DNA from: a virus
UHGV virus genome: UHGV-1847238
Strand: one strand, 5' to 3'
DNA length: 13,618 nucleotides
Positions within the stretch are counted from its first letter, which is position 1. Every line of letters starts with the position of its first letter. The position numbers and the translations under genes are program-made. The notes under the pieces were generated by a model. That model made no database searches, was not told where the DNA came from, and saw only the letters and a program-made list of their open reading frames with translations. This document shows, piece by piece, positions 7,936-8,924 of this stretch.

Positions 7936-8924
7936 GTCTGTTAATGACATCCCAGCCCATTGTGATAAATCGTGATCTTGCATGCCGTATTGGTCTGAAT
8001 GAGGCAATTGTGTTGCAGCAGCTTCATTACTGGCTGAATGAAACGAATTCAGGCACTGAGCATGGCGGAATTCGCTGGGTTTATAACACGACAGAACAGT
8101 GGCTGGAGCAGTTTCCGTTCTGGTCAGAGTCCACTCTGAAACGCACATTTGCAAGCCTGAAATCACTTGGGGTTTTGCGTCGCGAGCAACTCAATAAATC
8201 GAAGCGTGACATGACCAACTTCTACACGATCAACTATGAAAGTGAGCTTTTAGAAGAGGTCAAAGTGAACGAATCCATCAGGTCAAAATGCACTTCTCCA
8301 TCGGGTCAAAGTGACCTGATGGATGGGCGCAAAATGACACGATCCATTGGTTCAAAACGACACGCTGTCATCGGGTCAAAATGGCCCAATGATCTTACAG
8401 AGAATACAACAGAGATTACTACAGAGAATAAAACCTCTTCTCGTCCGGACGCTTCGCAACCGGACACGCAAACGGCTGAACAGGAGTTTTTAACTCGCCA
8501 TCCTGATGCGGTTGTATTCAGCCCTAAAAAGCGCCAGTGGGGAACGCAGGATGATTTGACCTGCGCACAGTGGCTCTGGAAAAAAATCATCGCCCTGTAC
8601 GAGCAGGCCGCCGAATGTGACGGCGAGGTGGTTCGTCCCAAAGAACCGAACTGGACAGCATGGGCAAACGAAATTCGCCTGATGTGTGTGCAGGATGGTC
8701 GTACTCACAAACAAATCTGCGAGATGTACAGCCGCGTCAGCCGTGATCCGTTCTGGTGCCGTAACGTGCTCAGCCCGTCGAAGTTGCGGGAAAAATGGGA
8801 TGAGCTTTCCCTGCGCTTATCGCCGTCCGTCAGCACGCACACAGAAAAACGTGAAGACCCGTACTTCAAAGCCAGTTACGACAACGTGGACTACAGCCAG
8901 ATCCCGGTAGGATTCAGGGGGTGA
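7932..8924 (+). CDS. Phage replication initiator (lambda O-like replisome organiser), 330 aa; the origin iterons lie inside the gene
   Basis: N-terminal IVINRDLACRIGLNEAIVLQQLHYWL... resembles phage replisome-organiser/O-type N-terminal domains. An internal array of 23-bp-periodic iterons plus an A-rich repeat block matches lambda ori-in-O architecture. Confidence 0.75.
   Translation: MSLLMTSQPIVINRDLACRIGLNEAIVLQQLHYWLNETNSGTEHGGIRWVYNTTEQWLEQFPFWSESTLKRTFASLKSLGVLRREQLNKSKRDMTNFYTINYESELLEEVKVNESIRSKCTSPSGQSDLMDGRKMTRSIGSKRHAVIGSKWPNDLTENTTEITTENKTSSRPDASQPDTQTAEQEFLTRHPDAVVFSPKKRQWGTQDDLTCAQWLWKKIIALYEQAAECDGEVVRPKEPNWTAWANEIRLMCVQDGRTHKQICEMYSRVSRDPFWCRNVLSPSKLREKWDELSLRLSPSVSTHTEKREDPYFKASYDNVDYSQIPVGFRG
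8275..8383. repeat. Origin-of-replication iterons: five copies of about 16 bp (consensus CCATCGGGTCAAAATG) at 23-bp spacing
   Basis: Copies start at 8275, 8298, 8321 (degenerate), 8344 and 8368, read directly from the sequence. Confidence 0.7.
8397..8430. repeat. A-rich triple direct repeat ACAGAGA(A/T)TA at 12-bp spacing flanking the iterons (putative DNA-unwinding region of ori)
   Basis: Copies at 8397-8406, 8409-8418 and 8421-8430, read directly from the sequence. Confidence 0.5.

What the first reader, a model, noticed from the sequence alone, without database searches (positions are those of the whole stretch)
8275..8430. Replication origin embedded in the O-like gene: five 23-bp-periodic iterons plus three A-rich 12-bp repeats
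Iterons with consensus CCATCGGGTCAAAATG start at 8275, 8298, 8321, 8344 and 8368, followed by ACAGAGA(A/T)TA x3 at 8397-8430. This matches the lambda ori-in-O architecture and marks the prophage as potentially replication-competent. In the protein these repeats encode the inter-domain linker of the initiator.
Basis: seen in the sequence. Interest (0 to 1): 0.4.

Follow-up and report, generated by a model that had tools for sequence, protein, structure and literature searches.

The report
Phage replication origin inside initiator gene
The repeats are real and almost certainly the prophage's replication origin, built like phage lambda's origin but using a different, very widespread and uncurated DNA-binding domain whose matching DNA repeats recur in phages of distant bacterial phyla.

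Summary
Six (not five) 23-bp repeats lie at 8253-8391 and three 12-bp ACAGAGAnTAC boxes at 8397-8432, all inside ORF 7932-8924. A short GC-rich inverted repeat follows (8443-8465), giving lambda's order: iterons, A-rich tract, inverted repeat.

Only the C-terminal half resembles lambda O (33% identity, E 1e-26). The N-terminal 105 residues are a different winged-helix domain with no Pfam, NCBIfam or PDB sequence match. It has 16,111 clusters at 50% identity in public data and occurs in prophages of 1,840 of 5,426 complete E. coli genomes, mostly annotated "hypothetical protein".

Across 33 divergent relatives from Gram-negative and Gram-positive phages:
- The domain is followed by 22-23-bp palindromic repeats, NNNCA-AAA-TGNNN.
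- The two half-sites change together, and track residues 66-67 at the start of the predicted recognition helix.
- CAGAG boxes follow 20-21 nt later. Codon choice and frame shifts show they are conserved as DNA, not as peptide.

No P, DnaC or DnaB-like gene is present in the window. Nothing was tested experimentally.

It is a new variant of a known kind. The conserved 12-mer boxes are the most interesting part.

The parts
7932..8924 (+). Initiator gene (330 aa). It has an N-terminal winged-helix domain, a repeat-encoded linker, a lambda-O-type C-terminal domain and a C-terminal tail.
   Evidence: ORF list. PHROG 391 'replication initiation O-like', E 4e-101, full length. 98% identical to the mEp460_4F5 'Primosomal protein I' CDS.
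7932..8252 (+). N-terminal winged-helix (wHTH) domain, residues 1 to about 107. The predicted recognition helix starts at E66-S67 (codons at 8127-8132).
   Evidence: AlphaFold2 with a 49-sequence alignment gives pLDDT 84.4, with H54-60, H66-79 and a wing at 82-100. Foldseek matches wHTH regulators and the N-domains of staphylococcal plasmid RepA initiators and phage replication proteins. No Pfam, NCBIfam or PDB sequence hit. Residues 66-67 covary with the iteron half-site.
8253..8275 (+).
   Evidence: the repeat finder D1. Near-invariant core in 63 unique relatives.
8276..8298 (+). Iteron 1 (CATCAGGTCAAAATGCACTTCTC).
8299..8321 (+). Iteron 2 (CATCGGGTCAAAGTGACCTGATG), a nearly perfect 10-3-10 palindrome.
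   Evidence: Inverted repeat I2.
8322..8344 (+). Iteron 3 (GATGGGCGCAAAATGACACGATC), the most degenerate copy.
   Evidence: 65% identity to the reference copy. Not found at up to 3 mismatches.
8345..8367 (+). Iteron 4 (CATTGGTTCAAAACGACACGCTG).
8369..8391 (+). Iteron 5 (CATCGGGTCAAAATGGCCCAATG). It lies 24 bp from iteron 4. Its core is 21 nt upstream of the first CAGAGA box.
8397..8432 (+). Three 12-bp boxes, ACAGAGA(A/T)TA(C/A)N, starting at 8397, 8409 and 8421. This is the putative DNA-unwinding element. The tract is 69% A+T, with 54% A on the top strand.
   Evidence: The least stable 37-mer of the ORF is 8395-8431 (dG -41.3, against a mean of -50.7 and sd 3.8 over all 37-mers of the 13.6-kb window). 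Composition resembles lambda's A-rich tract. The boxes are conserved as DNA across phyla.
8443..8465 (.). GC-rich inverted repeat GTCCGG-11 nt-CCGGAC, overlapping the palindrome CGTCCGGACG. It sits where lambda has its inverted repeat.
   Evidence: Arms of the same type (GTCsGG / CCsGAC) occur 12-20 nt after the last box in about 14 of 33 clusters. Lambda's repeat lies at L002 1163-1190.
8370..8813 (+). Region aligned with the C-terminal part of lambda O (residues 147-294 against lambda O 135-270). The conserved core is roughly residues 190-294.
   Evidence: BLASTP: 33% identity over 148 aa, E 1e-26. Alignment A1.
8853..8921 (+). C-terminal tail, ...REDPYFKASYDNVDYSQIPVGFRG. It is shared by initiators that otherwise have different C-terminal domains. 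It is a candidate short motif for recruiting a partner.
   Evidence: Alignment A1. Klebsiella and mEp460_ev081 proteins end in ...DVDYSVPAGFRS and ...TEIPPGFRG. The function is inferred only.

Best explanation
Coordinates 8253-8465 are the replication origin of a lambdoid (CPS-53/SfII/mEp460-type) prophage, embedded in its own initiator gene.

Proposed steps:
1. The initiator's N-terminal winged-helix domain binds the six abutting 23-bp iterons. Their core is (A/G)GGTCA-AAA-TGAC, with partial dyad symmetry. Binding is probably as dimers, and it builds an O-some-like nucleoprotein complex.
2. This complex destabilises the adjacent A-rich tract, made of three ACAGAGAnTAC boxes. That tract is the least stable segment of the gene.
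3. The boxes are probably also held sequence-specifically as single strands by the initiator. Winged-helix plasmid Rep proteins do this with the 13-mers of their unwinding elements.
4. The lambda-O-type C-terminal domain and/or the conserved C-terminal tail then recruits the host helicase. No phage-encoded P-type loader takes part.

Shown here: the repeats, their statistics, their position at the domain boundary, the fold class of the N-domain, the C-terminal homology to lambda O, the covariation between protein and DNA, and the DNA-level conservation of the boxes.

Inferred: binding, melting, single-strand contact and helicase recruitment.
For: 1. The arrays are far beyond chance.

2. A 23-bp period cannot be a peptide repeat. 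The six copies sit in codon phases 0, 2, 1, 0, 2, 2, yet keep the same core.

3. Genes in the same genomic slot carry different N-domains, and each has its own repeat family just after that domain. This holds for SfII, phiSTEC1575 and lambda.

4. In 33 clusters of the same N-domain (at most 85% identity), from E. coli, Klebsiella, Erwinia, Pseudomonas, Staphylococcus, Bacillus and metagenomic phages, the DNA right after the domain has its best autocorrelation period at 22-23 bp in most clusters.

5. The cores are palindromes, NNNCA-AAA-TGNNN. The left and right triplets change together: 79 of 96 positions match, against a permuted mean of 48 and a maximum of 62 in 10,000 permutations.

6. Residues 66-67, at the start of the predicted recognition helix, track the half-site across unrelated backgrounds:
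- ES goes with GGTCA.
- xD goes with xxGCA (7 of 7 clusters).
- ER goes with GGACA (2 of 2 clusters).
- VM or LI goes with TATCA.
- LS goes with TGTCA.

7. The N-domain is a wHTH. Its best PDB neighbours include iteron-binding plasmid RepA N-domains (4pql, 4pt7, 5kbj).

8. The C-terminal half is homologous to lambda O (E 1e-26).

9. The order iterons, A-rich tract, inverted repeat matches lambda.

10. The box tract is the least stable 37-mer of the ORF and lies in the top 1.6% of the 13.6-kb window. In most of the 13 clusters from Gram-negative hosts the ORF's least stable 37-mer starts within 30 nt of the first box.

11. The boxes are selected as DNA:
- In the peptide motif [TPS]-E-x-[TSN], Glu is GAG in 65 of 68 cases, against 254 of 652 elsewhere in the same ORFs (p 2e-21).
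- The preceding codon ends in CA in 64 of 68 cases, whatever the amino acid.
- In 12 of 33 clusters at least one box lies in another reading frame.
- The spacing from the last iteron core to the first box is 20-21 nt in 25 of 33 clusters.

12. Precedent for step 3: winged-helix Rep proteins TrfA and RepE bind one strand of repeated 13-mers of the unwinding element sequence-specifically (PMC4081077). Lambda O binds A/T-rich single-stranded DNA (PMC7466680).

13. The origin region 8238-8470 is identical to that of the phage record mEp460_4F5.
Against: - No experiment exists for this allele or, as far as the paper library shows, for any member of this N-domain family.
- The A-rich tract is short (39 bp) and only 69% A+T.
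- In AT-rich Gram-positive hosts the boxes are not the least stable part of the gene. So 'easily melted' cannot be their whole role.
- In this allele the right half-sites are weakly conserved (information 0.4-0.8 bit, against 1.2-2.0 bit on the left). Monomer binding to direct repeats is therefore not excluded.
- No helicase loader or helicase gene is present, and DnaA boxes are not enriched. The step after melting has no identified partner.
- The full-length structure model was poor (pLDDT 43.8).
Confidence: 0.85

Rival explanations
1. The repeats are only a low-complexity or repetitive peptide linker, with no function as DNA.
For: The 12-bp boxes are in frame and encode T-E-x-T repeats. Distant relatives keep a [TP]-[DE]-x-x peptide periodicity. 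The region lies between two domains and was modelled with low confidence.
Against: The 23-bp period is out of frame, yet the same core is kept in all three codon phases. The two half-sites covary as a palindrome. There is extreme synonymous-codon bias: GAG in 65 of 68 cases and NCA in 64 of 68. Boxes shifted into other frames occur in 12 of 33 clusters. Asp is GAT in 10 of 10 boxes of the distant members, including a Burkholderia phage; Burkholderia genomes are G+C-rich (own knowledge).
Confidence: 0.03
2. The repeats are initiator binding sites whose main role is regulation rather than initiation. Possible roles are autoregulation of the gene, titration or handcuffing, or exclusion of related phages. 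The true origin would then lie elsewhere.
For: Iteron arrays in plasmids also serve copy control. Ectopic lambda origin copies inhibit related phages (PMC4488673 and PMC3349717, titles and abstracts). Nothing here measures initiation.
Against: No other substantial tandem array exists in the early region. The arrays are joined at a fixed 20-21 nt to a conserved, easily melted box tract and an inverted repeat, as in lambda's proven origin. No promoter-like site lies nearby.
Confidence: 0.07
3. The origin is intact in sequence but the prophage cannot use it. It would be a relic, because the module lacks a helicase loader or other parts are defective.
For: No P, DnaC or DnaB-like gene is present in the window, which runs from the integrase gene to the Q gene. 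CPS-53-type prophages are often degraded (own knowledge).
Against: The initiator ORF is full length and 98% identical to that of a deposited phage genome with the same gene order and no loader. The origin DNA is 100% identical to it. SfII and SfIV, which are deposited phage genomes, share the gene order O - YfdN - Dam without a P gene. The core positions are nearly invariant in 63 unique relatives.
Confidence: 0.12

Closest known systems
Phage lambda ori-lambda / O protein (lambdoid 'origin inside gene O')
   Same: The origin is embedded in the initiator gene at the domain boundary. Tandem iterons with dyad symmetry are spaced about 20-24 bp apart. An A-rich, purine-skewed tract follows them, and then an inverted repeat. 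The C-terminal domain is homologous (33% identity, E 1e-26).
   Different: The N-terminal origin-binding domain and the iteron sequence are unrelated. There are six abutting 23-bp units instead of four 18-19-bp units. The A-rich tract is made of three sequence-conserved 12-mers. No P gene follows.
Iteron plasmid origins with winged-helix Rep proteins (RK2 TrfA, F RepE)
   Same: A wHTH initiator binds double-stranded iterons next to an unwinding element made of repeated 12-13-mers. In those plasmids the repeats are bound strand-specifically and sequence-specifically as single strands, and all of them are required (PMC4081077; PMC10602881).
   Different: The plasmid Reps have two winged-helix domains and act as monomers on direct repeats. 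Their origins are not inside the rep coding sequence, and they cooperate with DnaA boxes, which are absent here. No sequence homology to these proteins was tested.
RepA_N initiators of staphylococcal and enterococcal plasmids (pSK41 and pTZ2162 RepA; PDB 4pql, 4pt7, 5kbj)
   Same: The N-terminal wHTH domain is among the best structural neighbours. In those plasmids the iterons lie inside the rep gene's central region and the C-terminal domain is host-specific and DnaD-like (own knowledge). Staphylococcal phage relatives of the window's protein carry a DnaB_2/DnaD-like C-domain.
   Different: The structural match is weak (E 4e-3 to 5e-2, TM 0.4-0.6, 15-18% identity). There is no sequence-level hit to the PDB. 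The repeat architecture differs.
SPP1 G38P / phage 80-alpha ORF20 replisome organisers
   Same: The origin is embedded in the initiator gene, and the N-domain binds it (PMC5499656).
   Different: It is a different protein family. No Pfam hit of any kind was obtained for the window's N-domain. Those phages encode their own loader and/or helicase.

Membership tests
Lambda-type origin (origin inside gene O) | Tandem initiator-binding repeats located inside the initiator gene, between its two domains. | tested here: met
   Six 23-bp repeats at 8253-8391 inside ORF 7932-8924. They lie after the modelled wHTH domain and before the O-like C-domain.
Lambda-type origin (origin inside gene O) | Each iteron has internal dyad symmetry (a dimer site). 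| tested here: inconclusive
   The copy at 8299-8321 is a near-perfect palindrome. Family-wide half-site covariation is strong (79 of 96 positions). In this allele, however, the right halves are weakly conserved.
Lambda-type origin (origin inside gene O) | An adjacent A/T-rich, easily melted tract downstream of the iterons. | tested here: met
   8395-8431 is the least stable 37-mer of the ORF. It is 69% A+T and 54% A, against 78% and 61% in lambda.
Lambda-type origin (origin inside gene O) | An inverted repeat to the right of the A-rich tract. | tested here: met
   GTCCGG / CCGGAC at 8443-8465. Lambda has GTCAGAGAATTC / GAATCCTCTGAC at L002 1163-1190. The arms here are short (6 bp).
Lambda O protein family | C-terminal domain homologous to lambda O (the part that binds P in lambda). 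| tested here: met
   BLASTP: 33% identity over 148 aa, E 1e-26.
Lambda O protein family | N-terminal domain of the lambda O type (Pfam Phage_rep_O, PF04492). | tested here: not met
   No Pfam hit even at E up to 10 apart from two weak, sub-threshold matches (Slx4, Cdc6_C). There is no BLASTP similarity to the lambda O N-terminus.
Lambda-type replication module (initiator plus helicase loader) | A P-type (or DnaC-type) helicase loader gene next to the initiator. | tested here: not met
   The downstream genes are YfdN/PerC-like, Dam, LexA-N-like, RusA, KilA-N and DUF968/HNH. The upstream genes are Rha/Ash and a 74-aa ORF. No loader or helicase family was found in Pfam, NCBIfam or PHROGs.
Lambda-type origin (origin inside gene O) | The initiator binds the iterons, and the fragment supports initiator-dependent replication. 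| not testable with these tools
   Only comparative support is available: covariation of residues 66-67 with the half-site.
PHROG 391 'replication initiation O-like' | Full-length profile match. | tested here: met
   E 3.8e-101, residues 1-330 against profile positions 1-298 of 298.
Winged-helix Rep-type origin with sequence-specific repeats in the unwinding element | The repeated 12-13-mers are conserved in sequence, not merely A/T-rich. | tested here: met
   CAGAG (CAGAT in distant members) boxes recur at about 12-nt spacing in 33 clusters and in 5 of 6 more distant phages. Codon-bias and frame-shift evidence points to DNA-level selection.
Winged-helix Rep-type origin with sequence-specific repeats in the unwinding element | The initiator binds one strand of the repeats as single-stranded DNA. 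| not testable with these tools
   Inferred by analogy with TrfA and RepE (PMC4081077) and with lambda O binding to single-stranded DNA (PMC7466680).

The most novel reading that the evidence does not exclude
The window carries one copy of an ancient three-part origin cassette that has not been curated and that I could not find described. The parts are a winged-helix domain, cognate palindromic 22-23-bp iterons, and invariant CAGA(G/T) 12-mer boxes at a fixed 20-21-nt distance. The cassette is shared by phages of Proteobacteria and Firmicutes, and in a CAGAT variant also by single Bacteroides and Flavobacterium phages (Bacteroidota). The boxes would be a sequence-specific single-strand contact element, analogous to DnaA-trios or the TrfA 13-mers, read by the conserved face of the domain. 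Residues 66-67 would form a simple, re-programmable recognition code for the iterons. In the enterobacterial versions the initiator would recruit the host helicase without any phage loader, through the shared C-terminal ...DYSxIPxGFRG tail.
Probability: 0.35. Interest if true: 0.7.

Novelty: new variant of a known kind. Interest (0 to 1): 0.5.

Why it matters
For this prophage, the result locates the origin and shows that the initiator gene is intact.

More broadly, a third of complete E. coli genomes carry this module, and RefSeq mostly labels it 'hypothetical protein'. The N-domain family has more than 16,000 clusters at 50% identity and no curated model. A model for the domain plus the DNA signature would let origins be annotated in very many phages and prophages.

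Two results give directly testable handles on how ATP-independent winged-helix initiators choose and open their origins:
- The apparent two-residue recognition code.
- The sequence-conserved boxes in the unwinding element, kept across phyla.

The lack of a helicase loader next to a lambda-O-type C-domain raises the question of what that domain recruits here.

Tried and rejected
- **Family and structure databases.** Pfam, NCBIfam and PDB sequence searches of the initiator gave nothing usable.
- **Full-length structure model.** The single-sequence AlphaFold model was too poor to use beyond secondary structure (pLDDT 43.8). It was replaced by an alignment-based model of residues 1-113.
- **First codon-bias test.** It was circular, because the zone was defined by the motif itself. 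It was replaced by a test defined on the peptide.
- **DnaA boxes.** Not enriched and none near the origin: 10 hits against 12 expected.
- **Promoter scan.** Nothing in 7600-9100.
- **Rfam.** No RNA family in the origin region, so a structured-RNA reading was dropped.
- **GATC sites.** Two in the origin (8341, 8391), not clearly above the window density of 3.7 per kb. A Dam/SeqA reading was dropped.
- **Literature.** Searches for ACAGAGA, GTCAAAATG, mEp460, 'initiator-solo' and staphylococcal phage origins found no description of this repeat family.
- **First viral-contig scan.** It returned only close relatives, 79-100% identity. Extra scans seeded with the Erwinia and Bacillus phage domains were needed for diversity.
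- **Partition or packaging site.** Considered because TubR and ArsR-like folds appear among the structural hits. Rejected because the C-domains fused to this N-domain are replication-type: lambda O, DnaB_2/DnaD-like and Phg_2220_C.
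Full report
**1. The observation**

- The repeat finder reports a 23-nt family with six copies, starting at 8253, 8276, 8299, 8322, 8345 and 8369 (spacing 23, 23, 23, 23, 24). It also reports a 12-bp family with three copies at 8396-8434.
- Tandem Repeats Finder scores these as the two strongest arrays in the window: period 23, 5.4 copies, score 84; and period 12, 3.2 copies, score 55.
- The 15-mer consensus with up to 3 mismatches hits five times, four of them in the array. The expectation is 0.54, and 0 of 200 shuffles reach five.
- ACAGAGAWTAC with up to 1 mismatch hits four times, three of them here, against 0.28 expected.

- a sixth copy upstream at 8253-8275;
- the internal dyad symmetry of the 23-mers (8299-8321 is CATCGGGTCA-AAG-TGACCTGATG);
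- a GC-rich inverted repeat at 8443-8448 / 8460-8465.

**2. The gene**

All of this lies in ORF 7932-8924 (330 aa).
- It matches PHROG 391, 'replication initiation O-like', over its full length (E 4e-101). It has no Pfam, NCBIfam or PDB sequence hit.
- BLASTP against lambda O aligns only residues 147-294 with lambda O 135-270 (33% identity, E 1e-26). The N-terminal parts are unrelated.
- An AlphaFold2 model of residues 1-113, built on 49 homologues, is confident (pLDDT 84.4). It is a winged helix: H54-60, recognition helix H66-79 and a wing at 82-100.
- Its best PDB neighbours are wHTH regulators and the iteron-binding N-domains of staphylococcal plasmid RepA initiators (4pql, 4pt7, 5kbj). The scores are weak: E 4e-3 to 5e-2, TM 0.4-0.6.
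- In the viral structure library the neighbours are mostly unnamed or called replication proteins.
- The repeats encode residues about 108-167, between the two domains, so they are indeed the linker.

**3. Context**

The window is the early region of an E. coli prophage of the CPS-53/SfII/mEp460 type. The gene order is:
- integrase;
- S24-type repressor (4994-5668, minus strand);
- CII-like regulator;
- Rha/Ash protein;
- a 74-aa ORF;
- the initiator;
- YfdN/PerC-like protein;
- Dam methylase;
- LexA-N-like protein;
- RusA;
- KilA-N protein;
- DUF968/HNH protein;
- Q.

No P, DnaC or DnaB-like gene is present. The phage record mEp460_4F5 has the same initiator (98% identity), the same gene order, and an identical origin region over 8238-8470.

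**4. Evidence that the repeats act as DNA and are read by the N-domain**

(a) A 23-bp period is out of frame. The six copies start in codon phases 0, 2, 1, 0, 2, 2, yet keep the core A..(A/G)GGTCAAA(A/G)TG and a T at position 22 in 63 unique close relatives.

(b) In the same genomic slot, SfII, phiSTEC1575 and lambda have other N-domains. Each has its own repeat family directly after that domain.

(c) The window's N-domain has tblastn relatives in 123 phage records from many hosts. I collected 197 loci and reduced them to 33 clusters at no more than 85% identity.
- In most clusters the DNA right after the domain-end motif has its best autocorrelation period at 22-23 bp.
- The cores are palindromes of the form NNNCA-AAA-TGNNN. 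The outer triplets differ by clade but stay symmetric. Examples are GGTCA/TGACC, GGGCA/TGCCC, GATCA/TGATC, TATCA/TGATA, GCTCA/TGAGC and GTTCA/TGAAC.
- 79 of 96 triplet positions match between the left half and the reverse-complemented right half. The permuted mean is 48 and the maximum is 62 in 10,000 permutations.

(d) The two residues after the invariant FPFWS, at the start of the predicted recognition helix (E66-S67 here), track the half-site. They do so across unrelated backgrounds:
- ES (or EP, QE) goes with GGTCA in enterobacterial, Staphylococcus-like and Bacillus-like clusters.
- xD goes with xxGCA in 7 of 7 clusters.
- ER goes with GGACA in 2 of 2 clusters.
- VM or LI goes with TATCA, LS with TGTCA, and IM with GTTCA.

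This is the pattern expected if the domain reads the repeats. It was not corrected for phylogeny.

**5. The 12-bp boxes**

They are the least stable part of the gene. The least stable 37-mer of the ORF is 8395-8431, with dG -41.3 against a mean of -50.7 (sd 3.8) over all 37-mers of the window. That puts it in the top 1.6% of the window. In most of the 13 clusters from Gram-negative hosts the ORF's least stable 37-mer likewise starts within 30 nt of the first box. Composition is 69% A+T and 54% A on the top strand, close to lambda's A-rich tract at 78% and 61%.

The boxes are more than A/T-rich DNA.
- The same CAGAGAnTAC motif recurs two to four times at 12-nt spacing in all 33 clusters.
- It is not the least stable DNA in AT-rich Gram-positive hosts.
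- The distance from the last iteron core to the first box is 20-21 nt in 25 of 33 clusters.

The boxes are in frame here (T-E-x-T), but the conservation is at the DNA level.
- In the peptide motif [TPS]-E-x-[TSN], Glu is GAG in 65 of 68 cases, against 254 of 652 elsewhere in the same ORFs (p 2e-21).
- The preceding codon ends in CA in 64 of 68 cases, whether it encodes T, S or P.
- In 12 of 33 clusters one box sits 10-11 nt from its neighbour, in another frame. An example is ..ACCAGAGACTACACAGAGATTAC.., which reads N-T-R-D-Y-T-E-I-T.

Six more distant phage members were also read.
- Lactobacillus phage mv4 keeps four CAGAGA boxes, in codon phases 2, 1, 1, 1.
- The roughly 30%-identical Vibrio, Bacteroides, Flavobacterium and Burkholderia phages have a CAGAT variant at about 12-nt spacing. 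Asp is GAT in 10 of 10 boxes there.
- The Xanthomonas phage has no such box.

**6. The inverted repeat**

A GC-rich inverted repeat with arms of the type GTCsGG / CCsGAC lies 12-20 nt after the last box in about 14 of 33 clusters. This includes the window and several staphylococcal clusters, where it falls in different reading frames. Lambda has an inverted repeat at the same relative place. This third element is the weakest piece of evidence: individual z-scores are 2-4.

**7. Modularity and spread**

The same N-domain plus repeat cassette is fused to different C-terminal domains:
- lambda-O type (window and mEp460_ev081);
- Phg_2220_C (a Klebsiella phage);
- DnaB_2/DnaD-like (a Staphylococcus phage, followed by a DnaB-like helicase gene);
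- unassigned domains (Erwinia, Pseudomonas and Bacillus phages).

A profile of the domain finds 16,111 clusters at 50% identity with E up to 1e-3, and 3,278 with E up to 1e-30. The module (N-domain plus repeats) occurs in 1,840 of 5,426 complete E. coli genomes. Of the matching records, 224 are at least 95% identical and about 1,600 are a sister allele at 80-90% identity. Most are annotated 'hypothetical protein', including one in a BL21-derived strain.

**8. Mechanism**

The best-supported reading is a lambda-like origin.
1. The initiator's wHTH domain binds the six abutting iterons, probably as dimers, and forms an O-some-like complex.
2. The adjacent box tract opens.
3. The C-terminal part recruits the helicase.

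By analogy with TrfA and RepE, I propose that the boxes are also held as single strands by the initiator. Those proteins bind one strand of repeated 13-mers in the unwinding element sequence-specifically, and all the repeats are required (PMC4081077). Lambda O binds A/T-rich single-stranded DNA (PMC7466680). This would explain why the box sequence stays the same while iteron specificity diverges.

Binding, melting and recruitment are inferred, not shown. How a lambda-O-type C-domain works without P is open. Candidates are direct recruitment of host DnaB-DnaC, the shared C-terminal tail, or the co-conserved YfdN-like gene.

**9. Comparison and novelty**

- Membership in 'lambda-type origin inside gene O' is met for architecture and for the C-domain.
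- It is not met for the N-domain family or for the P-type loader.
- The concept of an origin inside the initiator gene is textbook (PMC7466680; PMC5499656).
- I found no description of this particular domain, iteron and box cassette in the searchable library. That library lacks many subscription papers, including the main review of phage replication modules.

I rate it a new variant of a known kind. The finding as written is ordinary. The conservation of the boxes across phyla and the apparent recognition code raise the interest to moderate.

Noticed in passing
window 6911-6987 and 7012-7099 (+): Rfam gathering-level matches to isrK (59 bits) and C4 antisense RNA (82 bits) lie inside the 5' part of the 387-aa Rha/Ash ORF 6551-7714. 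This suggests a P1/P7-type antisense immunity or anti-repressor control element. It also suggests that the long ORF call may include a non-coding leader.
   Followed up: no
window 1-13618, notably 8921-10068: No P, DnaC or DnaB-type helicase loader or helicase gene lies anywhere between the integrase and Q genes. The initiator's C-terminal half, the YfdN/PerC-like gene (8921-9415, whose N-terminal 105 aa match PHROG 23071 of unknown function) and Dam are conserved as one block at 97% in SfII, SfIV and many E. coli phages. YfdN's N-domain is a candidate partner.
   Followed up: partly
window 8853-8921: The C-terminal tail ...REDPYFKASYDNVDYSQIPVGFRG is shared by initiators whose C-terminal domains otherwise differ: phiSTEC1575, Klebsiella Kp4884-3 (...DVDYSVPAGFRS) and mEp460_ev081 (...TEIPPGFRG). 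It looks like a short linear motif for a host partner.
   Followed up: no
E. coli complete genomes; L200 3926-4891: The N-domain plus iteron module is present in 1,840 of 5,426 complete E. coli genomes and is mostly annotated 'hypothetical protein'. This includes a Qin/Rac-like prophage of the BL21-derived strain Rosetta2(DE3), WP_000054497.1.
   Followed up: partly
protein library (P0121-P0160): Many of the top representatives of the N-domain family are 400-880 aa long and match the profile in two separate stretches. They carry tandem or duplicated copies of the domain. Their architecture and any repeats in their genes were not examined.
   Followed up: no
L003 2347-2508 and L004 2991-3146: Genes in the same slot have their own repeat sets. 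SfII has 15-bp-periodic TCAAAATCTGACCCG units, in frame. phiSTEC1575 has GGTAGTGCAGGAGATTCAC units, followed by 12-bp GAACCAGTCAAA repeats. These are probably their origins.
   Followed up: partly
window 249-271: A perfect 12-bp tandem duplication, TTGGGGGTATCT x1.9, lies next to the integrase gene end. It may be related to the attachment site.
   Followed up: no
window 10065-10391: A 108-aa ORF matches only the N-terminal DNA-binding part of LexA (TIGR00498 positions 1-91, E 1.6e-19, below the family cut-off). It lacks the protease domain.
   Followed up: no
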